DNA of 64,000 nucleotides from Defluviicoccus sp. (GCA_022823775.1 JAJEHI010000086.1:1309-65308); one strand, 5' to 3'. Counted from the stretch's first letter, positions 47,154-60,158 are shown. The notes: generated from the letters alone by a model not told the origin. Numbers and translations: made by a program.

Positions 47154-48089
47154 CTATTCCGCAGCCCGATGGGCTGCCGACTGCATATCGAAATCGACCA
47201 GCGATGCCGCGTCTGCGGTCTCGCGCAGCATGCCCCAGCTCCGGATCCACGCGGCGGTCCGTTCGAGCTCATGGTCCGGGATCGGCGCCGGCTCGACGAC
47301 GACGATCCGGCTCGGGCGCAGGTCGTCGATGCCGAGCGCCGCGATTTCCGGGTCGTTTCGGGCGTGACGGTCGATGAAATAGCGCAGGTATTTCGTCTTG
47401 TCGGCGTCGATCCGGCGAACGGCCTCGCAGACGGCGCGGTTAAACCGTGCATAGGTCCCGGCGTCGACCCGGTCCGAAGCGACCTCGGTGCCGTGATAGA
47501 ACGCGGCCGTGAGGATCCGGCAACCCTTCTTTTCCGCGAGCGAGATATAGGGCTCGGTCAGGGTGGTCGCCTCGATCTCGCCCGACATCATCGAATCGAG
47601 GCGGAAGCGAGAGCCCATCGGGGCGCTGCACACCCGGATGCGGTCGCGCGGCAGGAAACCCTCCAGCATGTGGAGGGCGAGATAGTGGGTGCCGAAATAG
47701 AACGGCACGCCGACCAGCCGGTCGGCGAGCTGTTGCGCGGTGAACACGTCGGAATCGGGGCGCACCGCGATCGCCGCGTAGGTGACGATCGAACGACGGC
47801 CGACCTGGCGTCCGCCCTCGATGCCAGAATCCTGCACCCGGCAGTAATTCCCCCACTCGCAGGCGTTGTACATGTCCGCCCTGCCCTCTTCGAAGAGCTT
47901 GCCGTGGCTGGAGTGGGGATCGAGCCCTTCCGGACCGAGAATGTCGACGCGGGTCCGCCGGTCGACACCGGCTTCGCGGTCGACCCATTCGATTTCGAGG
48001 CCCTCTTTCTCGAACAGCCCCTCATCGTCGGCGACCAGTTCGCAGAGCCCTTGGAACGGGGCCGTATTCTCGAGCACCAGCGTCTGCAT
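47154..48089 (-). CDS. NMT1/THI5-like (NitT/TauT-type) ABC substrate-binding domain protein
   Basis: About 310 aa with a periplasmic-binding-protein type-2 fold. Start chosen at the third Met (MQTLV...), which follows GGGAGAG. There is no obvious signal peptide, so the function is uncertain. Confidence 0.5.
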   Translation of the reverse strand: MQTLVLENTAPFQGLCELVADDEGLFEKEGLEIEWVDREAGVDRRTRVDILGPEGLDPHSSHGKLFEEGRADMYNACEWGNYCRVQDSGIEGGRQVGRRSIVTYAAIAVRPDSDVFTAQQLADRLVGVPFYFGTHYLALHMLEGFLPRDRIRVCSAPMGSRFRLDSMMSGEIEATTLTEPYISLAEKKGCRILTAAFYHGTEVASDRVDAGTYARFNRAVCEAVRRIDADKTKYLRYFIDRHARNDPEIAALGIDDLRPSRIVVVEPAPIPDHELERTAAWIRSWGMLRETADAASLVDFDMQSAAHRAAE

Positions 48090-48219
48090 CGGCATCTCTC
48101 CCAAGCACCCTATCCTAGAGCAATCGGCCCGCGCGAGCGACAGCCCGCGGCGGGTTGCAATCGGTCCCCGAGGGGTTCAGTTTTCCACGGCGCGACGGGC
48201 CGCGGCGGTTTCGCGAAAC

Positions 48220-48309
48220 GGATGGGTGGCCGAGCGGTCGAAGGCACCGGTCTTGAAAACCGGCAGGCGTGCAAGCGTCTCGTGGGTTCGAATCCCACCC
48301 CATCCGCCA
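48220..48309 (+). tRNA. tRNA-Ser (anticodon UGA)
   Basis: GGATGGGTGGCCGAGCGGTCGAAGGCACCGGTCTTGAAAACCGGCAGGCGTGCAAGCGTCTCGTGGGTTCGAATCCCACCCCATCCGCCA has a 7-bp acceptor stem, an anticodon stem CCGGT/ACCGG with loop CTTGAAA, a long variable arm and an encoded CCA. Confidence 0.9.
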
Positions 48310-48680
48310 TATCCGGGACTCTACGGGAAAGGGGCGGAGCCAAGGCCGAGCCAACGACTTCGGCTCCGCAAGTCGCAGGGGGGAAACACAGGGAGGCATC
48401 TGGCAGGACAACCCGATCCCCCCACCAAGGACCCGCGGAAGGGAGAAACCGCAAGTCCAGCAAAAAATATTTCACATGCGGCAGGCGATTGTTACCGGAA
48501 TATGACCCGGCGCCGCGCCCGCCGGATAGCTGACTTCAAGCCAGTTTTGGACCGAAATAGTACTTATTAATCAATATATTATAGTCATTTTCTGAGATTT
48601 TGAATCGCCCCGTGCTTCGGAACAAATGCGAATCGCCCTGGGCGAATCGGCAACCCGTCGGCAGCGCCGCGGCGGCACGC

Positions 48681-50027
48681 TTAGCGACGCCGGTCGATGA
48701 AACGCGGGGCTTTCACGCTGGCCTCGAACTCGCGGGCCAGCAGGCCGGGTTCGAGGATGACGATGTCGGGCGAGAGCTCGAAGGTCTCCTTGGTGCGCCT
48801 CTCCAGGTCCTCGCGCAGCGTGTCGGGGTCGGCGCCGCGGCGCGGCTCGACGGAAACCCGGAGGCGTTCGAGACCCGACGCGTCGCCGATCAGTTCGAGC
48901 TTGAAGTCGTTCACCGAGCGGTGCCCGAACATCATGTCCTCGAATTCCTGGTGGTTGACGTTGACACCGCGCAGCTTGAAGAAGCCCGCCGTGCGGTGGG
49001 CGTGGCGCATCGTGGGGAAGACCGAGAACGCCCCGTCGTCGCCCCCGGCGGGGTTCATGATCACGATGTCGCCCGAATCCCAGCGCAGGAACGGCGCCCC
49101 GTTGTTGCCGAACAGGGAGGTGCAAACCAGATGGCCGGGCTCGCCGTCCGGCACCGGCTTGCCGGTATCGGGGTCGAGCACCTCGAATATGGCGAGGTCG
49201 GCCCAGATCCTGAACCCCTGGCGGGACGGTCCCTCCGCGGCCAGCATGCTGATCTCGGTCATCCCGAAACAGTCGAAGACCCGGGCTCCCCAGTCGCGTT
49301 CGAGCTTTTCCCGCTTGGCCGCCGAAAGCGCCTCGGCGGAGCACAGCATGGTGGAGACCGAGCCTTCAGCAAGGTCCACGCCCTCCGAGTTGGCCAGGTT
49401 GGCGAGGTGCAGGCCGTAGCTCGACATGCCCAGCCAGACGGTGGGCTTGAGCGAGGAAATCAGGGCGAGCTGCTGGACCGACGGCAGCGACGCGCCGGAG
49501 CCCGCCCATACCGCGCCCATCCCCACGATCTGCGCCGCGCGCGCCCACATGTGGCCGACCGGATGGACCCCGAGCGGCGTCGAGATATGCGCCCTGTGGT
49601 TCGCCCCGTCTTCGATCCCCGCGGCCGCGAAGGTGCGGGTGAAACCGACCATGTTGAAGAGGATGTCCTCGAAAGTCTTCGGGTAGAACAACGGCTTTCC
49701 GGTGCTCCCGCCCGAGCGCCAGTACTCGCAGATCTCCTGACCGTCGAGCGTGCAGAAATCCTCGTAAAACCGCTCGTCCGACATCGCCCGAAGCTCGTCC
49801 TTGGTCAGGATCGGGATCTTCGACCACTCCTCGGGGTCGTCGAGCTTGCCGACGTCGATCCCCTCGAGGCGCGGGCGCCAGAACGGCGATCTGCGGGCGC
49901 GCTCGACGGCGATGCGCTTGCGTCTGCTCTGGATGCCTTCGATCTCTTCCGGGTTCTCCGGAATGCAGAGCGGCAAACCCGCGTAGATGTCCGGACGGCC
50001 CCGGGCCAGGCTCTCCAGCGCGCTCAT
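48681..50027 (-). CDS. Phenylacetate-CoA ligase family (PaaK/coenzyme F390 synthetase-like) adenylate-forming enzyme
   Basis: 448 aa. The AMP-binding core is present (YWRSGGSTGKPLFYP, GMTE) and the PaaK-like C-terminal domain. Confidence 0.8.
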   Translation of the reverse strand: MSALESLARGRPDIYAGLPLCIPENPEEIEGIQSRRKRIAVERARRSPFWRPRLEGIDVGKLDDPEEWSKIPILTKDELRAMSDERFYEDFCTLDGQEICEYWRSGGSTGKPLFYPKTFEDILFNMVGFTRTFAAAGIEDGANHRAHISTPLGVHPVGHMWARAAQIVGMGAVWAGSGASLPSVQQLALISSLKPTVWLGMSSYGLHLANLANSEGVDLAEGSVSTMLCSAEALSAAKREKLERDWGARVFDCFGMTEISMLAAEGPSRQGFRIWADLAIFEVLDPDTGKPVPDGEPGHLVCTSLFGNNGAPFLRWDSGDIVIMNPAGGDDGAFSVFPTMRHAHRTAGFFKLRGVNVNHQEFEDMMFGHRSVNDFKLELIGDASGLERLRVSVEPRRGADPDTLREDLERRTKETFELSPDIVILEPGLLAREFEASVKAPRFIDRRR

Positions 50028-51034
50028 TCCCCTGAATCGCTCCCGAGATAGCCGAGCGCGCCGATCCAGCGCTCCTGGGCGGCATAAGAGTCGGGGAGCG
50101 CCTCCTTCGCCTCCGCGTCGGCCATTGCGGCGAGGCGCCCGGCCTTTTCCGGGGTCGCCTCCGGTATCTCATCGAGGCTGTCCCCGATCATCCGCGCGTA
50201 GTCGTTGCCCACCGGACACACGTCCTGGCAGCGGCGGCAACCGCTGATCACCCCGGCACCGCGCAAAATGCTCTGCCACAGGTTGAAGCTGGTCTCGGAA
50301 CGGATCATGTCGAGCCTGGCGGCATCGTCCGGCGCTTCCAGGATGTCGCCAAGGTGATCCGCGAGCTGCGAGAAACCGTGCGGCGACCGGTAGCTGTCGC
50401 AGGCGGGCCAGTCGCGGTCCCAGTGTCCCACCACGTCTCCCGGGCAGGCGGTCAAGCAGCGGCCGCATTCCGGGCCGAGGCAAAGCGCCTCCTCCCGCCG
50501 GCCATCGGTTTCGCAATCGACCGAACACATCACCGCGGTGATCAGGACCCGGGGGCCGAACTCGGGGGTGATAAGCTGCAGATTCAGGCCCAGCGTGCCG
50601 AGCCCGGCCTCGACCGCCGCATGGGTGAGCGACAGCACCGTGGTCATGTGCTGGTTGCGGTCGCCGCGATAGAGCCACGGATCGGCATGGGTCGGCGGGA
50701 CGATGATCGTGGGATAGCCGTTGTCCTCCAGCCAGAAGACGAGCTCGAGCGAGGTTTCCTCCAGCATCGTGAGGACGAGCTCGTCGTTGTAATATTTGTG
50801 CCGCTCGTCCCAGCGCGCGATCCGGGTGGTGCCGGCGGAGTAGCGTTTGGCGAGGACGATCACGCGGCCGCCGTCATGCTCGGTGATGTCCTTCGGGCGG
50901 CGCGGGTCGCGCGGATCGGGCGGGTGCGCGTCCATCACCGCGCCGTCGGCGATACCGACGAGGTCGGCGCCGAGCGCCCTCGCCTTCGCCTTTATCGTGT
51001 CCGCGTCGAGCGGAGTCTGGAAGACGCCGACCAT
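50024..51034 (-). CDS. QueG/RdhA-superfamily 4Fe-4S protein (epoxyqueuosine-reductase-like paralogue 1)
   Basis: N-terminal KARALGADLVGIAD, GLGTLGLN...PEFGPRV, and two Cys clusters (CLGPECGRCLTACPGD and CRRCQDVCPVGND). These parallel the QueG A(E/G)LGxxG...CxxCxxCxxxCP and CxxCQxVCP motifs. Confidence 0.6.
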   Translation of the reverse strand: MVGVFQTPLDADTIKAKARALGADLVGIADGAVMDAHPPDPRDPRRPKDITEHDGGRVIVLAKRYSAGTTRIARWDERHKYYNDELVLTMLEETSLELVFWLEDNGYPTIIVPPTHADPWLYRGDRNQHMTTVLSLTHAAVEAGLGTLGLNLQLITPEFGPRVLITAVMCSVDCETDGRREEALCLGPECGRCLTACPGDVVGHWDRDWPACDSYRSPHGFSQLADHLGDILEAPDDAARLDMIRSETSFNLWQSILRGAGVISGCRRCQDVCPVGNDYARMIGDSLDEIPEATPEKAGRLAAMADAEAKEALPDSYAAQERWIGALGYLGSDSGE

Positions 51035-52051
51035 CTAGCGCTCGGACGCGTTCGTCTCGCGCTCGCGCTGCAGCGCCTTGAAGGCCTGGAGCTGGCGCGC
51101 GACAATGCCCTTGTAACCCTCCGGCCCCACCCAGCGCACGTTCCAGTCGTTCAGCCCGTCGACCTCGGCGCCTGACTTTCGGGCCTCCTTGAACGCGGCG
51201 GCCTTGTCCACCTTTTCCGGCGTCTTTTCGGGGATGACCTTCTGAAGCGGCGCGAGGAAAGCGTGGTAATCGTTGCCCACCGGGCAGACCGCGAGGCAAC
51301 GGGGGCAGTCCCCGAACGACCCCACGACCCTGAGCAATCCCTGCCAGAACCCGTAGATTTCCCGGTCGGCGATCAGGCGCCGCCTGGTTTCCCCGTCGGA
51401 AACCAGGAAATGCTCCCAGAATTTCAGAATGGTGGTGAACCCGAACTCCTGCGCTTCGGTGGCACAGGCGCGCTTGTCGATGCCGAAATGGCGGACCGCG
51501 TCGGAGGGGCAGGAATAGAGACAGCGGCTGCAGCTCTCGCCGATGCAGACCTGCTCGGTCATCGGCTTGTCGGCCTCGAGCTCGCATTCGGTGAGCACGC
51601 CGGTCAGGTAGACCCTCGGTCCGAACTCGGGCGTCAGGATGTTGACCTCCAGCCCGAACGTGCCGAGCCCCGCCTCGATCCCGAGATGGCGCGTCGACAG
51701 CCGCCCGTAACTCGCCCGCTTGTAGCTCCAGTCGGTCTCCTGCGCCGCGGTGACGAAGCTCGGATGGCCCTCCCGTTCGAGGGCATCGACGAGACGGTAG
51801 GCGATCCTGTCCATCCGCCTCAGCACCAGCATGTCGATGTACTGGACCGGCACGTTCGTTTTGCACCGGAATGCGCCGACCGGAATGCGCTGGGCGATCG
51901 CCACGACGCTCTTCACATGCGGCGAAATCCGCTCGGGCGTCTGCGGGAACAGCGGGTCGGGCGGAAACGCGTTGAGGACGGAGGCGTCCGCGATCCCCAC
52001 CAGGTCCGCGCCGAGATCCTTCGCCAGGGCCTTTACTTCGGTTGCGTCCAT
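51035..52051 (-). CDS. QueG/RdhA-superfamily 4Fe-4S protein (paralogue 2)
   Basis: Internal Met MDATEVKALAKDLGADLVGIADAS..., with a GGGGAG RBS. Same motif set (GLGTFGLEVNILTPEFGPRV, CIGESCSRCLYSCPSD, CPRCLAVCPVGNDY). Clear paralogue of the preceding gene. Confidence 0.6.
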   Translation of the reverse strand: MDATEVKALAKDLGADLVGIADASVLNAFPPDPLFPQTPERISPHVKSVVAIAQRIPVGAFRCKTNVPVQYIDMLVLRRMDRIAYRLVDALEREGHPSFVTAAQETDWSYKRASYGRLSTRHLGIEAGLGTFGLEVNILTPEFGPRVYLTGVLTECELEADKPMTEQVCIGESCSRCLYSCPSDAVRHFGIDKRACATEAQEFGFTTILKFWEHFLVSDGETRRRLIADREIYGFWQGLLRVVGSFGDCPRCLAVCPVGNDYHAFLAPLQKVIPEKTPEKVDKAAAFKEARKSGAEVDGLNDWNVRWVGPEGYKGIVARQLQAFKALQRERETNASER

Positions 52052-52161
52052 CGACTCCCCGCAGGACCGTGAACGGGCGCCAAACTGGCATAGGGGAGAG
52101 TTGCGGGCAAGGCGGGGCGGCGCGCGTTGCCCGGACGCCGGGCGGCGCGTATTTAGGTGCC

Positions 52162-53298
52162 ATGAGTTCCCCGCCAACCCGACCCGTGCCAGGATTCGAG
52201 ACAGGCGATATAGCCGCGGTGGACCGCGCGGCCGGCGATCTTCGCCGCGGTCTGCCGGTGATTCTTGCCGAACCCGGGGACACCGACGGCATCGTCGCGT
52301 TCGCGGCCGAATTCATCTCGGCATCGCGGCTCGACGCGCTGCGCCGGCTGGCGGGGCGGGAACCGGACCTGACGATTACCCATAACCGGGCCGCCACCCT
52401 GAAAATCCGTCTCTACACGCCGGACGTGATCAGGATTCCGGTGCCGGAGTGGCTCTCGATCGAGGGGTTGGCAAGCCTCGCGGATCCGGCGACCGACCTC
52501 GCCCAGCCCCTGCGCGGCCCGTTCGAGGCGCGGCGCGATCCGGTGCCGGCCGGCGTCGTCGCGGCGGTGCGGCTCGCCAAGATCGCGCGACTCCTGCCGG
52601 CGACGGTGACCGCGGAGGTAAGCGACCTCGCCGCCGCGCTCGGAACCGAAAAGGCGGACCTGCTCGGGGTCGGACCGTCCGCGGTCATGTCATACGATGT
52701 CGCCGCCTCGCACCGGCTGGAGCAGGTCACCGCGGCGAAAGTGCCGCTCGAGGGCGCCGAGGGAGCGCGCATTTTCGCCTTCCGCCCGCGGGACGGCGGG
52801 ACCGAGCACTTCGCCATCGCGATCAACGACCCTCCCCCGCCCGGCCCGGTGCTGGCCCGGCTCCATTCGGAGTGCTTCACCGGCGATCTGCTCGGGTCGC
52901 TCAAATGCGATTGCGGGCAACAGCTGCGCGGCGCCATCGAACAAATCTCGTCCGAAGGCGCCGGCATTCTCCTCTACCTCGCCCAGGAAGGCCGCGGCAT
53001 CGGGCTGATCAACAAGCTCCGGGCCTACGCCCTGCAGGACCTCGGCTTCGATACGGTGGAGGCGAACGAACGGCTGGGATTCGACGCGGACGAGCGGGTG
53101 TTCCTGCCCGCCGCCGAGATGCTGCGCCGGCTGGGCTATTCGTCGGTACGGCTGATGACCAACAACCCCGACAAGGTCGAGGCGCTCGCCCGCTTCGGAA
53201 TCGAGGTCGCCGAACGGGTGCCGCACAGCTTCCCTTCCAACGACCACAACGCCTTCTACCTGTCGACGAAGGCGGAGAAGAGCGGGCATCTGTTGTAG
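52162..53298 (+). CDS. ribA: GTP cyclohydrolase II with N-terminal extension
   Basis: C-terminal RibA domain with an intact zinc/catalytic region (ARLHSECFTGDLLGSLKCDCGQQL, RAYALQDLGFDTVEANERLG). Confidence 0.85.
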   Translation: MSSPPTRPVPGFETGDIAAVDRAAGDLRRGLPVILAEPGDTDGIVAFAAEFISASRLDALRRLAGREPDLTITHNRAATLKIRLYTPDVIRIPVPEWLSIEGLASLADPATDLAQPLRGPFEARRDPVPAGVVAAVRLAKIARLLPATVTAEVSDLAAALGTEKADLLGVGPSAVMSYDVAASHRLEQVTAAKVPLEGAEGARIFAFRPRDGGTEHFAIAINDPPPPGPVLARLHSECFTGDLLGSLKCDCGQQLRGAIEQISSEGAGILLYLAQEGRGIGLINKLRAYALQDLGFDTVEANERLGFDADERVFLPAAEMLRRLGYSSVRLMTNNPDKVEALARFGIEVAERVPHSFPSNDHNAFYLSTKAEKSGHLL

Positions 53299-53462: not shown

Positions 53463-53741
53463 ATGATACGAAAGTTCCGGAGTCGGGCACTGCGTCGGTT
53501 CATGGAGCGAGGCGACGAGCGGCGCGTCCACCCGGAGCACCGCGACACCGTGCGCGACATCCTGGTGCGTCTCAACGCGTGTGCGAACCCGGACGATATG
53601 GACTTGCCCGGCTTTCGGCTGCACCGCCTCAGGGGCGAGTATGCCGGATTTTGGGCGGTGACGGTCGGCGCCAACTGGCGGGTGATCTTCCGATTCGAGG
53701 ACGGCCACGCCACCGATGTCGACTATGTGGGCTACCACTAG
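53463..53741 (+). CDS. higB: HigB-type (RelE/ParE superfamily) toxin
   Basis: 92-aa product. [39 protein letters not shown]... matches the 'plasmid maintenance system killer' family. Immediately followed by higA. Confidence 0.75.
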
Positions 53742-53754
53742 GAAGGCAACGTTC

Positions 53755-54042
53755 ATGCTTATGCACGATCCGCCCCACCCCGGCGCCTTCATTCGGCGTC
53801 AATGCCTCCAACCCCTCGGGCTGACGGTCACCGACGCCGCGAAGGGGCTGGCGGTTTCGCGCAACACGCTCTCTCTGTTACTCAACGGCCACATTGGCAT
53901 ATCGCCCGAAATGGCGATCCGGCTCTCCGAAGCATTCGGCGGCAGCCCGGAAAGCTGGCTGACCCAGCAGATGCAGTACGATCTCTGGCACACGCGGCAC
54001 AACCGCGAGGCAGTCGAAATCCGCAAGTTCGCCGCTGCCTGA
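53755..54042 (+). CDS. higA: HigA-type HTH (XRE-family) antitoxin
   Basis: [78 protein letters not shown], the canonical HigA sequence. AGGAAGG RBS 8 nt upstream. Confidence 0.8.
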
Positions 54043-57674: not shown

Positions 57675-59009
57675 TCAGCGCATCGGAGCCGCCGCCTCCT
57701 TGAGCGCCGCCAGCTCCTCTTCGGCCCGCCCGGTGTCGTCGAGCCCGGCCTTGCGGTCGATCGGAACGGCCTCCTTGTCATCCGCCGTCGGCAGCTTCCC
57801 GACCGGGTAGACCGCGACCCGTTCGTTGGCGCCCGAGACGTCGCGCCCGAGCGACAGGTCACGCTCGTTGGCGGCGGACGCCGCGACGATCCTGCCGTCC
57901 TCCTTCACGAGGTCGAGCCACCAGCGCTTGACCGGGTTGCGCTTGCCGTAGCCGAGCGCATCGTCGAGCCAGATCAGGAAACGGCGCGAGAACGGCAGCT
58001 TGATCGCCGCCCACATCGCGAGCCGGTGCGCCAGCAGCCCCTCCTTGTTCCACGGGCACATCTTCATGCAGCGCCCGCACGCCGAGCCCTTGAGGTTGGT
58101 CACCCGGTACTTGGTGCACTTCTCGACGTCGGGCTTCCAGATCTCGTAGCCGTTGTAGAGCAGCTTGTCGCCGAACGGGATGGCCTGGGCCGGGCACTCG
58201 CGCGCGCATTTGCGGCATTTGTCGCAGAAATCCTGGAGCCCGAAATCGATCGGCTTGTCGGGAACCAGCGGCAGGTCGGTGGTCACGACGGCGGTCTTGT
58301 GGCGCGGCCCGATGAAGGGGTTGAGGACGAGCTCGCCGATCCGGCTCATCTCGCCCAGCCCGGCAAGCAGCATCAGCGGAATCTGCATCACGTCGCCGTG
58401 GGCGTTGGAGTGCGCCTGGGCCGGGTAGCCGAGGCGGCGGATGTAATCGGCGACGATAGTGGCCGTGGTGGAGCCGTTGAGATATGCGCGATAGCTCTGC
58501 GCGCCGGACACCCAATCGTCGCCGGACGAGGCTTCGAACGTGTCCCAGCCCTGGTCGATCACGATGACGACCGCGAATTTGTGCCGGGTATCGATCGGCG
58601 TACCGTCGCTCTCGTGGGAGAACCATGCGTACTCGGGCACCTCGCACACCCCCACCATGTCGGCGTCGAGGAAATAGCAGAGCGATTTGACGTGTCTGGT
58701 CAGCTCTTCGGGGTCGTCAGGCAGCGGCGCCTTCTCGTCCGCCGGATCGCCCTTGTGGACGGGCACGTGCTTCCAGTGCAGGTGCCCGATCGCCGCGTTG
58801 AGCGGGTTCTTGGTGATGAAGCGCCGGATTTCCCTGGCGGGCTTGGGACCGAGATCGCCGTAGAAGGCACGGACGAAGAAGCCGGCGCGCTTGGGCACCT
58901 GCTTCACGTCGTCGGTGATCAGCGTCGTCGGACGATCGACGCGCCTGATCTTCTCCATCGGATAGCGGCCGAGATGCATCGGCCGCTTCTTGCGTGAAAG
59001 TATCCGCAC
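57675..59009 (-). CDS. Cytoplasmic reductive-dehalogenase-like (RdhA/QueG superfamily) cobalamin/4Fe-4S protein
   Basis: About 440 aa. No Tat signal. Two ferredoxin-type clusters (FCDKCRKCARECPAQAI and CGRCMKMCPWNKEG) preceded by AGLGEMSRIGELVLNPFIGPRHK, the RdhA/QueG core pattern. No rdhB anchor gene nearby. Confidence 0.55.
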   Translation of the reverse strand: MRILSRKKRPMHLGRYPMEKIRRVDRPTTLITDDVKQVPKRAGFFVRAFYGDLGPKPAREIRRFITKNPLNAAIGHLHWKHVPVHKGDPADEKAPLPDDPEELTRHVKSLCYFLDADMVGVCEVPEYAWFSHESDGTPIDTRHKFAVVIVIDQGWDTFEASSGDDWVSGAQSYRAYLNGSTTATIVADYIRRLGYPAQAHSNAHGDVMQIPLMLLAGLGEMSRIGELVLNPFIGPRHKTAVVTTDLPLVPDKPIDFGLQDFCDKCRKCARECPAQAIPFGDKLLYNGYEIWKPDVEKCTKYRVTNLKGSACGRCMKMCPWNKEGLLAHRLAMWAAIKLPFSRRFLIWLDDALGYGKRNPVKRWWLDLVKEDGRIVAASAANERDLSLGRDVSGANERVAVYPVGKLPTADDKEAVPIDRKAGLDDTGRAEEELAALKEAAAPMR

Positions 59010-59093: not shown

Positions 59094-60158
59094 CTACTGG
59101 ATGCCGTAGAGCGCCTTGGTGTTGTGATAGAGGATCTTTTCCTTGACCTCCATCGAGTATTCGTTGTCGGCGAGGAAGTCCGGCACGTCCGCCGTCAAAT
59201 CCTCTTCCGTCGGTTCGTGCGGGAAGTCGGACGCGTAGATGATCCGGTCCGACCCCATCGCGTCGATGACGTATTTGAGGCTCTTCTCGCCCATCTCGCA
59301 GGACAGCCAGATGCTCTCCGTGTCGCGGATGATCTCCGAGGGCTTCTTCTTCAACTTCGGGCGGACGGGCGCGCCGAACACCGAATCGTATTCGTAGTCG
59401 AGCCGGTCCATCATGAAGGTGATCCAGGCGCAGCCGCCTTCCAGGAACGCGAACTTGAGATTGGGGAAGGTCTCGAAGACGCCGTTGAACATCATGTCGG
59501 TCATCTGGATCATCAGCGGGACCGGGTGTTCGAGGGTATGGACCTTGAGGAACGGCTTCAGGTTGTCGAGCCCGAAACCCCGGCTTACCGCGCCGTGGAA
59601 GGCGATGGTCATGCCCTGGCGCTCGGCCTCCTCGTAGATCGGCCAATAGCACTCGTCCCCGAAATACTTGCCGTTGACGGTCACCGTCGGGAGCAGCATC
59701 GCACCGAAATTGGTCCGCTCGGTGGCGCAGCGGGCCACTTCCTTCTTCGCGGCCTCGACGTCGTTGTAGGGGATCAGCCCGACGCCCCAGAGCCGGCCGT
59801 CCTTCTTGGTGTAGTGCTCTTCCAGCCAGTTGTTGTAGGCGATCGCGGTGGCGGTCTGGAACTCCTCGCTCTGCATCAGCCCGTAGGCCAGCCCGGACGT
59901 CGGGTAGAGAACGCTGCCCTCGAGCCCGATCTTGTCGAGGATCTCGGCCCAGATATCGGCGTCGGTCGACCAGTACCGCGCGCCTTCGTCGCCCTCCGCG
60001 ACGATCGAGCTCCGCGACCAGCCGTCGAGGCTCGGAAAGATGGTCATGCCTTCGAGGCGGCGGTTGCCCGTCCACTTGCCTTCATAGTGCTGCGCGAGCT
60101 CGCGGTCCGGCTCGAGGACGTGGCCGTCGCCATCGAAGACGGGAATGTCATGTTGCAT
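59094..60158 (-). CDS. Amidohydrolase-2 (ACMSD/LigW-type) metal-dependent decarboxylase family protein
   Basis: N-terminal FDGDGHVLEP (HxH-type metal ligands in the D/HxH context), an internal AFHG, and a C-terminal DFPHE motif typical of PF04909. Confidence 0.75.
   Translation of the reverse strand: MQHDIPVFDGDGHVLEPDRELAQHYEGKWTGNRRLEGMTIFPSLDGWSRSSIVAEGDEGARYWSTDADIWAEILDKIGLEGSVLYPTSGLAYGLMQSEEFQTATAIAYNNWLEEHYTKKDGRLWGVGLIPYNDVEAAKKEVARCATERTNFGAMLLPTVTVNGKYFGDECYWPIYEEAERQGMTIAFHGAVSRGFGLDNLKPFLKVHTLEHPVPLMIQMTDMMFNGVFETFPNLKFAFLEGGCAWITFMMDRLDYEYDSVFGAPVRPKLKKKPSEIIRDTESIWLSCEMGEKSLKYVIDAMGSDRIIYASDFPHEPTEEDLTADVPDFLADNEYSMEVKEKILYHNTKALYGIQ

What the first reader, a model, noticed from the sequence alone, without database searches (positions are those of the whole stretch)
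48310..52051. Two tandem QueG/RdhA-superfamily paralogues plus a PaaK-like adenylating ligase inserted between tRNA-Ser and ribA
Immediately 3' of tRNA-Ser(UGA) (48220-48309) lies an AT-rich spacer, then a co-directional three-gene block on the minus strand.
- A phenylacetate-CoA-ligase/F390-synthetase-family enzyme (48681-50027).
- Two adjacent 336-aa paralogues (50024-51034 and 51035-52051). Both carry the epoxyqueuosine-reductase/reductive-dehalogenase motif set: xDLVGIAD, A/GLGxxG...PEFGPRV, CxxxCxxCxxxCP and CxRCxxVCPVGNDY.
The paralogues are shorter than canonical QueG and lack its conserved C-terminal HEAT-like region, so they are unlikely to be the housekeeping queG.
A tandem pair of cobalamin/Fe-S-type reductase homologues translationally linked (ATGA overlap) to an adenylate-forming ligase is not a described pathway.
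The location next to a tRNA gene, with core ribA on the other side, is typical of an integrated islet, but no integrase or direct repeat was found.
Basis: partly seen in the sequence, partly recalled or inferred. Interest (0 to 1): 0.65.

Follow-up and report, generated by a model that had tools for sequence, protein, structure and literature searches.

The report
Ligase-coupled QueG/RdhA-like reductase pair
Three tightly linked genes encode two related iron-sulfur proteins from the vitamin-B12 reductase superfamily and an acid-activating ligase; the trio recurs in hundreds of mostly uncultured bacteria, matches no described family, and probably modifies a CoA-activated organic acid.

Summary
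On the minus strand lie B (51035-52051, 338 aa), A (50024-51034, 336 aa) and a PaaK-type ligase (48681-50027, 448 aa). B's stop abuts A's start, and A and the ligase share an ATGA overlap.

A and B are 37% identical. Both are true but remote relatives of QueG and reductive dehalogenases. They keep all eight cysteines for two [4Fe-4S] clusters but score far below both curated family cut-offs. They lack QueG's tRNA-binding domain and its catalytic Asp134, so they are not queG.

The tRNA-linked islet idea is not supported:
- There is no integrase, repeat or GC anomaly.
- The tRNA adjacency exists only in the closest clade.
- B-A-ligase is collinear in 65 of 72 assessable genome loci from Alpha- and Betaproteobacteria, Rokubacteria and Acidobacteria.
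- Natural B-A fusions exist and also sit beside acyl-CoA ligases.

Neighbours are Liv-type ABC transporters, benzoate-CoA-ligase-like enzymes, acyl-CoA dehydrogenases, hydratases and ring oxygenases.

Best reading, which is inferred: a heteromeric, probably cobalamin/Fe-S reductase acting on a CoA-activated, probably aromatic, acid. The substrate and the reaction are unknown. It is a new variant of a known superfamily.

The parts
51035..52051 (-). Subunit B (338 aa). It is a QueG/RdhA-superfamily protein with an N-terminal cobalamin-domain-like core and eight Cys for two [4Fe-4S] clusters: C169-x4-C174-x2-C177-x3-C181, C196, C249-x2-C252-x3-C256. It is the most conserved of the three genes.
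   Evidence: ORF. Start ATG with GGGGAG upstream. TIGR00276 47 bits against 200 and TIGR02486 33 bits against 160. PDB phmmer gives QueG at 1.4e-9; the profile gives 6e-18. Identity is 70-98% in 80 genome loci. Arg121 aligns to QueG Arg141 and Ser114 to QueG Asp134.
50024..51034 (-). Subunit A (336 aa), a paralogue of B with 37% identity. It has the same eight Cys and the GLG...PEFGPRV core. It has Thr where B has the QueG-Arg141-like Arg.
   Evidence: A follows B directly in 75 of 75 assessable loci, at 55-94% identity. It forms the C-terminal half of natural fusions, for example P0275 residues 353-675 at 63% identity.
48681..50027 (-). Adenylate-forming ligase (448 aa), a distinct subfamily of the PaaK / F390-synthetase branch. 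Its start overlaps the stop of A (ATGA).
   Evidence: PF00501 58.9 bits. Haloarchaeal PaaK model 149 bits against a cut-off of 700 and TIGR02155 111 bits against 646. PDB PaaK 4r1l E 1e-29. The P-loop, GMTE, SGD and C-terminal Lys439 are conserved, and HRTAGFF replaces GRSDDM. The ligase is collinear after A in 65 of 72 loci.
52052..52161 (.). Short divergent intergenic region between the B start and the likely ribA start (Met at about 52162). It is the presumed promoter region of the operon (inferred).
   Evidence: Sequence. The ribA gene called in relatives is 383 aa against the 418-aa maximal ORF. No sigma-70 consensus and no riboswitch were found.
48310..48680 (.). The 3' boundary of the operon, a spacer to tRNA-Ser. 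An AT-rich and poorly conserved stretch (48540-48629) is followed by about 190 nt of conserved non-coding sequence next to the tRNA. It is not an attachment-site scar.
   Evidence: No repeat of the tRNA 3' end was found.

Best explanation
The three genes form one operon for a cytoplasmic two-step module that acts on an imported organic acid, most likely an aromatic or arylacetic acid.

Step 1 (inferred from family): the PaaK-type ligase adenylates the acid and makes its CoA thioester.

Step 2 (inferred): B and A form an obligate heteromer, which in some bacteria is a single fused B-A polypeptide. Each subunit carries two [4Fe-4S] clusters. At least B probably holds a base-off corrinoid in a QueG/RdhA-like pocket. 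Electrons from an unlinked ferredoxin or flavodoxin pass through the clusters to the cofactor, which performs a two-electron reductive change on the acyl-CoA. Candidates are removal of a halide, a hydroxyl or epoxide oxygen, or another substituent. The product would then enter ordinary CoA-dependent catabolism.

Shown: gene structure, paralogy, remote homology to QueG/RdhA, the full set of cluster ligands, conservation of the B-A-ligase order, the fusions, and the kinds of neighbours.

Inferred: heteromer formation, corrinoid binding, CoA-thioester substrate, reductive chemistry, and the aromatic nature of the substrate.
For: Homology:
- The profile of the family matches QueG (E 6e-18), PceA-type RdhA (2e-17) and NpRdhA (1.7e-7) over the cobalamin core plus the first cluster motif.
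- The top 46 Foldseek hits of the fusion model are all NpRdhA, QueG or PceA, followed by the B12 chaperone CblD.
- The eight Cys parallel QueG's published ligand pattern.
- B keeps an Arg at the position of QueG Arg141, which lies under the corrin ring.

Obligate pairing:
- A follows B in 75 of 75 loci, with gaps mostly between -39 and +46 nt.
- B-A fusions form about 17 clusters of 650-694 aa. P0275 is 63% identical to both B and A.

Ligase coupling:
- The PaaK-like ligase follows in 65 of 72 loci.
- Of the five fusion contexts read, four sit beside an acyl-CoA ligase: L085 benzoate-CoA ligase family at 591 bits against a cut-off of 375, L091 and L092 FadD-like, L090 PaaK-like. The P0122 fusion has none adjacent.

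Context is CoA-dependent acid or aromatic catabolism and uptake:
- Liv-type ABC transporter in about 20 loci, a benzoate-CoA-ligase-like second ligase in 15, enoyl-CoA hydratase in 15, acyl-CoA dehydrogenase in 9, OYE/BaiCD-like in 8, Rieske ring oxygenase in 8, Mo-hydroxylase in 8.
- GST, MarR, LigB and meta-cleavage genes also occur.

The same window also encodes a bona fide NpRdhA-like enzyme 6 kb away. NpRdhA is a cobalamin-dependent dehalogenase.
Against: - No cofactor or activity was measured, and corrinoid binding cannot be read from sequence.
- Neither QueG's catalytic Asp134 nor PceA's Tyr246 is conserved at the aligned positions, so the chemistry may differ from both.
- The AlphaFold models are of low confidence (pLDDT 57.5 and 60.5).
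- The ligase lacks the usual GRxDD hinge motif and might not make a CoA thioester.
- No electron-donor gene is linked.
- Neighbourhoods are heterogeneous and point to no single substrate.
- B is 70-98% identical across phyla and more conserved than ribA in the same genome pairs (for example B 79% against ribA 55%). That is unusual for a peripheral catabolic enzyme.
- No cobalamin riboswitch was found in the window or in 14 related loci.
Confidence: 0.45

Rival explanations
1. One of the two paralogues is the organism's epoxyqueuosine reductase (queG) and the pair serves tRNA queuosine maturation.
For: Some pipelines name relatives 'epoxyqueuosine reductase QueG'. The best curated hit is TIGR00276. 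A tRNA gene is adjacent.
Against: - TIGR00276 scores are 36-47 bits against a cut-off of 200, and only model positions 129-207 match.
- The HEAT-like tRNA-binding domain, residues 257-385 of B. subtilis QueG, has no counterpart.
- Catalytic Asp134 aligns to Ser114.
- Obligate pairing and ligase coupling are foreign to queG.
- The tRNA is tRNA-Ser, which is not one of the tRNAs that carry queuosine (own knowledge), and it is adjacent only in one clade.
Confidence: 0.02
2. The block is a recently integrated genomic islet that used tRNA-Ser as its attachment site.
For: It is adjacent to the tRNA 3' end. A 90-nt AT-rich stretch lies in the spacer. Housekeeping ribA lies on the other side.
Against: - There is no integrase and no repeat of the tRNA 3' end.
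- GC is the same as in the flanks.
- The arrangement is identical in six related genomes (L005-L010). In L011 ribA adjacency persists without the tRNA.
- None of the other 54 loci scanned has a tRNA beside the trio.
- ribA adjacency extends to genomes whose ribA is only 55-68% identical, so the position is old.
Confidence: 0.04
3. A and B bind no corrinoid. They are Fe-S, and perhaps flavin, electron-transfer or redox proteins that kept the RdhA/QueG scaffold. For example, they could reduce the ligase's acyl-adenylate or thioester, or act as a CblC/CblD-like heterodimer that processes a cofactor.
For: - The catalytic residues of QueG and PceA are not conserved.
- The core fold is shared with flavin nitroreductases and the CblC/CblD chaperones. 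The link to flavin nitroreductases and CblC rests on own knowledge; the search itself returned CblD, at E about 0.02.
- No cobalamin riboswitch or B12 gene is linked.
- ribA, a flavin pathway gene, is adjacent in 11 of 80 loci.
- HbpS/PduOC-like and short MetE-like neighbours occur in a few loci.
Against: - The strongest conserved block (EAGLGxxG...TPEFGPR) is the one shared with the corrinoid-binding cores of QueG, PceA and NpRdhA.
- B keeps the QueG Arg141 equivalent.
- Every characterised member of the superfamily branch it matches uses cobalamin.
- ribA adjacency is confined to one alphaproteobacterial sub-clade.
Confidence: 0.2
4. The trio is biosynthetic rather than catabolic. The PaaK-like ligase would activate a building block, as AjiA1, FlxY or BagE do, and B/A would tailor it for a secondary metabolite or cofactor.
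For: The ligase scores almost equally with FlxY, DVU_1553-type, BagE/FevW and AjiA1-like enzymes. All three genes are under unusually strong purifying selection.
Against: No PKS, NRPS, carrier-protein or other biosynthetic genes appear in about 90 neighbourhoods. The neighbours are uptake and degradation genes.
Confidence: 0.1

Closest known systems
Epoxyqueuosine reductase QueG (TIGR00276; PDB 5d08, 5d6s)
   Same: It is cytoplasmic. It shares the N-terminal alpha-beta-alpha corrinoid-type core with the AGxG...TPEYG block. It has the same eight-Cys pattern for two [4Fe-4S] clusters, with an insert between the two motifs. B has an Arg at the position of Arg141. It is the best sequence match.
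   Different: The trio's proteins have no HEAT-like tRNA domain. Asp134 is replaced. The first motif is Cx4C rather than Cx2C. They form an obligate paralogue pair or a fusion, and they are coupled to an acyl-CoA ligase. Scores are a fifth of the family cut-off.
Catabolic reductive dehalogenase NpRdhA/BhbA type (PDB 4ras, 6zxx)
   Same: These are cytoplasmic enzymes of aerobic Alphaproteobacteria that act on aromatic acids. They have the same core and ferredoxin domain. NpRdhA is the best fold match to the B-A fusion, aligned over about 670 columns. A true homologue lies 6 kb away in this window.
   Different: Sequence similarity is only E 1.7e-7, against the C-terminal half. TIGR02486 is not met. 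NpRdhA acts on the free acid without a ligase (own knowledge). The TM-score is only 0.25, on a low-confidence model.
Respiratory reductive dehalogenase RdhA (PceA; PDB 4uqu, 8q4h)
   Same: It shares the corrinoid core block and two [4Fe-4S] motifs, at profile E 2e-17 to 3e-16.
   Different: A and B have no Tat signal, and no RdhB anchor gene lies nearby. PceA Tyr246 aligns to Leu77 in B and Arg305 to Tyr148. The hosts belong to lineages usually regarded as aerobic heterotrophs (own knowledge).
Phenylacetate-CoA ligase PaaK and PaaK-like ligases (PDB 2y27, 4r1l, 6siw, 6hdw)
   Same: It has the same two-domain ANL architecture over its full length. The P-loop, GMTE, SGD and C-terminal catalytic Lys are present.
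   Different: It scores 111-149 bits against equivalog cut-offs of 646-700. The hinge motif is HRTAGFF instead of GRSDDM. No paa genes are nearby, and the substrate is unknown.
4-chlorobenzoate pathway logic (ligase, then dehalogenase acting on the CoA ester), and the NADPH-dependent reductive ortho-dehalogenation of 2,4-dichlorobenzoyl-CoA reported in coryneform bacteria (own knowledge, not checked here)
   Same: CoA activation comes before removal of a ring substituent. To my knowledge the reductive version has no assigned gene.
   Different: There are no sequence data to compare. The held library has no paper on it. This is a lead, not a test.

Membership tests
QueG (tRNA epoxyqueuosine reductase, TIGR00276) | Full-length match above the curated cut-off (200 bits) | tested here: not met
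   A scores 35.8 bits and B 47.3 bits. Only model positions 129-208 are matched.
QueG (tRNA epoxyqueuosine reductase, TIGR00276) | C-terminal HEAT-like tRNA-binding domain (Leu257-Leu385 in B. subtilis) | tested here: not met
   Alignments to 5d08 and 5d6s end after the ferredoxin motifs. B has only 82 residues after Cys256, and they have no match.
QueG (tRNA epoxyqueuosine reductase, TIGR00276) | Catalytic Asp134 (with His106) | tested here: not met
   With the +28 offset of the 5d08 chain, Asp134 aligns to Ser114 of B and His106 to Asp81. A has an insertion there. This rests on alignment, not structure.
QueG/RdhA superfamily (corrinoid plus 2x[4Fe-4S] reductases) | Significant similarity over the corrinoid-binding core and the ferredoxin domain | tested here: met
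   The profile A1 matches QueG at 6.4e-18 (positions 10-211), 8q4h at 2.1e-17, PceA at 3e-16 and NpRdhA at 1.7e-7. All Foldseek hits with E<1e-3 are these families (the model has low confidence).
QueG/RdhA superfamily (corrinoid plus 2x[4Fe-4S] reductases) | Eight Cys ligands for two [4Fe-4S] clusters | tested here: met
   C169, C174, C177, C181, C196, C249, C252 and C256 are invariant in A, B and their relatives. The pattern parallels QueG's.
QueG/RdhA superfamily (corrinoid plus 2x[4Fe-4S] reductases) | Bound base-off cobalamin | not testable with these tools
   The family has no sequence motif diagnostic for binding. B keeps the Arg141 equivalent (R121), while A has Thr.
Reductive dehalogenase RdhA (TIGR02486) | Match above the curated cut-off (160.35 bits) | tested here: not met
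   A scores 15.7 bits and B 32.7 bits. The window's other gene, 57675-59009, scores 201.5 bits.
Reductive dehalogenase RdhA (respiratory type) | Tat signal peptide and an adjacent rdhB membrane anchor | tested here: not met
   The N-termini, MDATEVKALAKDLGADLVGIAD and MVGVFQTPLDADTIKAK, have no twin-arginine motif. The neighbours are ribA and the ligase.
Reductive dehalogenase RdhA (respiratory type) | Active-site Tyr/Arg pair (PceA Tyr246/Arg305) | tested here: inconclusive
   Tyr246 aligns to Leu77 and Arg305 to Tyr148 of B, but the alignment is uncertain around Tyr246.
PaaK (phenylacetate-CoA ligase, TIGR02155 / NF041878) | Equivalog-level score | tested here: not met
   111.4 bits against 646.3, and 149.1 bits against 700.
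ANL adenylate-forming superfamily, PaaK-like branch | AMP-binding domain, P-loop, A5, A7 and the A10 lysine | tested here: met
   PF00501 scores 58.9 bits against 29.9. SGGSTGKP, GMTE, SGD and K439 are conserved in 48 orthologues. Full-length alignment to PaaK structures is shown.
ANL adenylate-forming superfamily, PaaK-like branch | A8 hinge motif GRxDD | tested here: not met
   The conserved sequence is HRTAGFFKLRG where PaaK has GRSDDM..(R/K)G.
ANL adenylate-forming superfamily, PaaK-like branch | Formation of an acyl-CoA thioester | not testable with these tools
   Inferred only, from the family and from interchange with benzoate-CoA-ligase-type and FadD-type ligases beside the fusions.
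tRNA-linked genomic island | Integrase, a direct repeat of the tRNA 3' end, deviant composition, and patchy presence among close relatives | tested here: not met
   There is no integrase ORF and no repeat. GC is 0.62-0.69, like the flanks. The arrangement is conserved in L005-L010.

The most novel reading that the evidence does not exclude
B/A define a third functional branch of the cobalamin/[4Fe-4S] QueG-RdhA superfamily. It would be an obligate heteromeric (or fused) enzyme carrying out a so-far undescribed corrinoid-dependent reduction on CoA-activated acids. Candidates are CoA-dependent reductive dehalogenation, or deoxygenation of an aryl-CoA epoxide or hydroxyl. It would be widespread in aerobic and largely uncultured soil, freshwater, marine and sponge-associated bacteria.
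Probability: 0.3. Interest if true: 0.75.

Novelty: new variant of a known kind. Interest (0 to 1): 0.58.

Why it matters
Only two reaction types are known for this B12 enzyme superfamily: organohalide reduction and epoxyqueuosine reduction. The trio would add a third branch with three distinguishing features:
- It pairs two paralogous subunits.
- It is hard-wired to an acyl-CoA ligase.
- It is more conserved than a housekeeping gene across several phyla.

That branch would extend the known chemistry of cobalamin. It would add a B12-requiring step to aerobic organic-acid catabolism. It would also give a function to hundreds of proteins now labelled 'hypothetical', 'ferredoxin' or, wrongly, 'QueG'.

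The family is concrete enough to test directly. It has three genes and natural single-chain fusions, and a panel of aryl acids could be screened.

Tried and rejected
- **Riboswitches.** An Rfam scan of the window and of 14 related loci found only tRNAs and a sub-threshold sX4 hit that overlaps the tRNA.
- **Promoters and terminators.** The consensus scan found nothing.
- **Islet test.** A repeat scan for a duplicated tRNA-Ser segment found only the paralogy between A and B.
- **Structure prediction.** The models of B and of a natural fusion have pLDDT 57.5 and 60.5. The Fe-S parts are disordered, so I did not read active-site geometry or subunit interfaces from them.
- **Plasmids.** tblastn of B against 72,556 plasmids gave no hit at E<=1e-20.
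- **Literature.** Five searches found no paper on this gene combination.
- **Distant relatives.**
  - The 260-300 aa relatives sit beside DUF169 and Liv-type transporters, or in unrelated contexts, without ligases. They do not inform the function.
  - The multi-copy 470-794 aa relatives, like the 260-aa ones, match no curated family.
- **ribA as a functional partner.** I rejected this as probable synteny. It is adjacent in 11 of 80 loci, all from one alphaproteobacterial sub-clade.
- **Conserved spacer next to the tRNA.** A covariation test found hairpins, but only 1 of 41 pairs covaries across 7 sequences.

Full report
**What is in the sequence**

ARAGORN and Rfam place tRNA-Ser(tga) at 48220-48309 on the + strand. 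Three co-directional ORFs lie on the minus strand. I call them B, A and LIG:

| Name | Coordinates | Length |
|---|---|---|
| B | 51035-52051 | 338 aa |
| A | 50024-51034 | 336 aa |
| LIG | 48681-50027 | 448 aa |

- B starts at an ATG preceded by GGGGAG. The longer TTG ORF reaching 52177 is not used in relatives, which are 338 aa.
- B's TAG stop is followed directly by A's ATG.
- A's stop overlaps LIG's start in ATGA.
- A and B are 37% identical over their full length, E 7e-68.

- B is 338 aa.
- The first cluster motif is Cx4Cx2Cx3CP.
- Only about 90 nt of the 371-nt spacer is AT-rich.

**What the proteins are**

LIG is a full-length member of the PaaK / F390-synthetase branch of adenylate-forming enzymes.
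- PF00501 scores 58.9 bits. PaaK structures match at E 1e-29 to 5e-23.
- It lies far below every equivalog cut-off, for example 149 bits against 700.
- Across 48 orthologues it conserves the P-loop, GMTE, SGD and the C-terminal lysine. It carries HRTAGFF where PaaK has the GRSDDM hinge.

A and B hit only ferredoxin-type Pfam models, near or below their cut-offs (only A's Fer4_10 hit just clears it), and no DUF1730 or PF13486.
- Against NCBIfam they hit QueG locally at 36 and 47 bits (cut-off 200). They hit RDH at 16 and 33 bits (cut-off 160).
- The homology is nonetheless real. A family profile matches B. subtilis QueG at E 6e-18, a PceA-type RdhA at 2e-17 and NpRdhA at 1.7e-7. The match covers the whole corrinoid-binding core and the first cluster motif.
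- Eight cysteines are invariant. They follow the published QueG ligand pattern, C188..C198, C214, C240..C247.

I fixed the numbering offset of the 5d08 chain at +28, because Glu125, Asp134, Ser190 and Cys188 all then fall on the right residues. With that offset:
- QueG's catalytic Asp134 aligns to Ser114 of B.
- Arg141, which lies under the corrin ring, aligns to Arg121 of B and to Thr in A.
- PceA Tyr246 aligns to Leu77.

There is no counterpart of QueG's HEAT-like tRNA domain. There is also no Tat signal and no rdhB. A and B are thus members of the superfamily but of neither known family.

None of nine more distant relatives tested reaches a curated family cut-off either.

AlphaFold models were poor, with pLDDT 57.5 and 60.5. 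Even so, every Foldseek hit with E<1e-3 was NpRdhA, QueG or PceA, followed by the B12 chaperone CblD.

**How widespread it is, and how the genes travel**

- B has 2537 relatives at E<=1e-3 in the 5.8-billion-protein set. The best 120 are all at least 78% identical.
- In the 50%-clustered library, 85 clusters match at E<=1e-30.
- A scan of one genome per species returned at least 582 stretches. The best 80 loci come from MAGs of Alphaproteobacteria, Burkholderiales and other Betaproteobacteria, Rokubacteria and Acidobacteria. The alphaproteobacterial MAGs include Defluviicoccus, Rhodospirillales, Xanthobacteraceae and Stellaceae.
- The window itself is a Defluviicoccus-type genome. It is 98% identical to a Defluviicoccus MAG (locus L006), and NCBI calls the protein hypothetical.
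- No sequenced plasmid carries it.

Gene order is very stable:
- In 75 of 75 assessable loci, A directly follows B.
- In 65 of 72, the PaaK-like ligase follows A.
- In two it is elsewhere in the locus, and in five it is absent.

Identity to the window proteins is 70-98% for B, 55-94% for A and 50-93% for LIG. In the same genome pairs ribA is less conserved than B, for example 55% against 79% in L020.

Natural B-A fusions of 650-694 aa form about 17 clusters. P0275 is 63% identical to B over residues 3-333 and 63% identical to A over residues 353-675. Fusion in gene order is the usual signature of two subunits of one complex.

**The islet hypothesis**

- There is no integrase, no repeat of the tRNA 3' end and no GC deviation.
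- The tRNA-Ser / trio / ribA order is identical in six related genomes. L011 keeps ribA but not the tRNA. None of the other 54 loci scanned has a tRNA beside the trio.
- The spacer is not a scar. Its 190 nt next to the tRNA are strongly conserved in the clade. The AT-rich part is AT-rich in all genomes but variable in sequence.

I reject the islet reading.

**What it probably does**

The strongest functional clue is the constant company of an acyl-CoA ligase.
- The PaaK-like enzyme accompanies the split genes.
- Beside four of the five fusion contexts read there is a ligase from one of three different subfamilies:

| Locus | Ligase beside the fusion | Score |
|---|---|---|
| L085 | benzoate-CoA ligase family | 591 bits against 375 |
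| L091, L092 | FadD-like | below the subfamily cut-off (428 and 309 bits against 476) |
| L090 | PaaK-like | 152 bits against a cut-off of 700 |

The remaining fusion (P0122) has no ligase adjacent. Interchange of ligase type around a constant partner argues that the ligase supplies an acyl-CoA, or acyl-AMP, to B/A.

The wider neighbourhoods vary but share a theme:

| Neighbour | Loci (of 80) |
|---|---|
| Liv-type ABC transporter | about 20 |
| Second, benzoate-CoA-ligase-like enzyme directly upstream | 15 |
| Enoyl-CoA hydratase | 15 |
| Acyl-CoA dehydrogenase | 9 |
| OYE/BaiCD-like flavoenzyme | 8 |
| Rieske ring-hydroxylating oxygenase | 8 |
| Xanthine-dehydrogenase-type Mo enzyme | 8 |

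GST, MarR, an Amidohydro_2 protein, and a LigB/meta-cleavage cluster also occur.

I therefore propose a peripheral catabolic module:
1. Uptake of an organic acid, probably aromatic.
2. CoA activation by the ligase.
3. A two-electron reductive modification by a heteromeric B/A enzyme, using two [4Fe-4S] clusters per subunit and probably a base-off corrinoid in B.

The nature of the leaving group is not determined. It could be a halide, an epoxide or hydroxyl oxygen, or something else. The electron donor is not linked. All of this paragraph is inference, and I give it 0.45.

**What argues against it, and what remains unexplained**

- The catalytic residues of both known families are missing.
- Corrinoid binding is untestable here.
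- The ligase has an unusual hinge.
- No riboswitch or B12 gene is linked.
- The very strong conservation of B across phyla fits a central function better than a peripheral one.

A corrinoid-free Fe-S redox role, or a CblC/CblD-like role, keeps about 0.2. A biosynthetic role keeps about 0.1. queG and the islet are effectively excluded.

**Comparison with the known, and novelty**

- The pair works most like a catabolic RdhA or QueG, but it is a member of neither.
- It differs in quaternary structure, in its obligate link to CoA activation and in its active-site residues.
- No curated model (Pfam, NCBIfam) covers it, and no paper in the held library covers it.

I class it as a new variant of a known kind, with interest 0.58. 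If biochemistry shows a new corrinoid-dependent reaction on acyl-CoAs, it would deserve about 0.75.

Noticed in passing
window 57675-59009 (-), with 59094-60158 (-): A 444-aa protein passes the reductive-dehalogenase model (TIGR02486, 201.5 bits against 160). It is a close homologue of residues 251-689 of the catabolic dehalogenase NpRdhA (E 4e-165) but lacks NpRdhA's N-terminal 250 residues. It sits next to an Amidohydro_2 protein. The pair is conserved in the related genomes L005-L009. The window therefore holds three QueG/RdhA-superfamily genes within 9 kb.
   Followed up: partly
window 53463-53741 (+) and 53716-54042 (+): A HigB-like toxin (PF05015, 60 bits) and an HTH antitoxin lie between ribA and the enoyl-CoA hydratase gene. 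In the close relatives L001/L005 and L006, ribA and the hydratase are directly adjacent. The toxin-antitoxin pair is therefore a strain-specific insertion.
   Followed up: partly
window 48310-48500 (+), directly 3' of tRNA-Ser: About 190 nt of non-coding sequence is strongly conserved in six Defluviicoccus-clade genomes, with several invariant blocks and predicted hairpins. The adjoining AT-rich stretch is not conserved. Rfam gives only a sub-threshold sX4 match that includes the tRNA. With seven sequences, covariation is uninformative: 1 of 41 pairs. It may be a tRNA-linked small RNA or a trailer.
   Followed up: partly
L012 13275-14201, also L017, L019, L072: A third, much more divergent paralogue follows the ligase in four loci. 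It is 308 aa, 26% identical, with hhalign probability 99.2% against the A/B profile. Its first Fe-S motif is altered.
   Followed up: partly
L020, L021, L025, L076 compared with window 51035-53298: B is more conserved than the adjacent housekeeping-type ribA in the same genome pairs: B 76-79%, A 68-72%, ligase 61-64%, ribA 55-68%. Such strong constraint on a presumed peripheral enzyme is unexplained.
   Followed up: no
window 47154-48104 (-): A 316-aa protein has only a faint NMT1/SsuA-like match and no signal peptide. It is conserved just beyond the tRNA-Ser in the Defluviicoccus clade. In L089, NMT1-type binding proteins and a GTP cyclohydrolase II also lie near the trio. Its function is unknown.
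   Followed up: no
window 52162-53298 (+): The ribA product carries a long N-terminal region resembling a degenerate DHBP-synthase domain (PRK08815-like, 272 bits against a cut-off of 464). It may not be the standard housekeeping RibA.
   Followed up: no
L093 6127-7783; proteins P0207, P0222, P0249: Distant relatives of A/B are single 260-aa proteins next to DUF169 and a Liv-type ABC transporter. Others are two- or three-copy fusions of 470-794 aa. None matches a curated family, so the whole clade is uncharacterised.
   Followed up: partly
L003, L048, L057-L059, L077; L011, L020, L025, L076, L089: Two kinds of neighbour recur next to the trio in small subsets of loci. One is a short MetE-type methyltransferase (PRK06520, 453 bits). 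The other is an HbpS/PduO-C-like protein. Both protein types have reported links to corrinoids (own knowledge). In L077 the MetE-like gene lies between the ligase and B.
   Followed up: no
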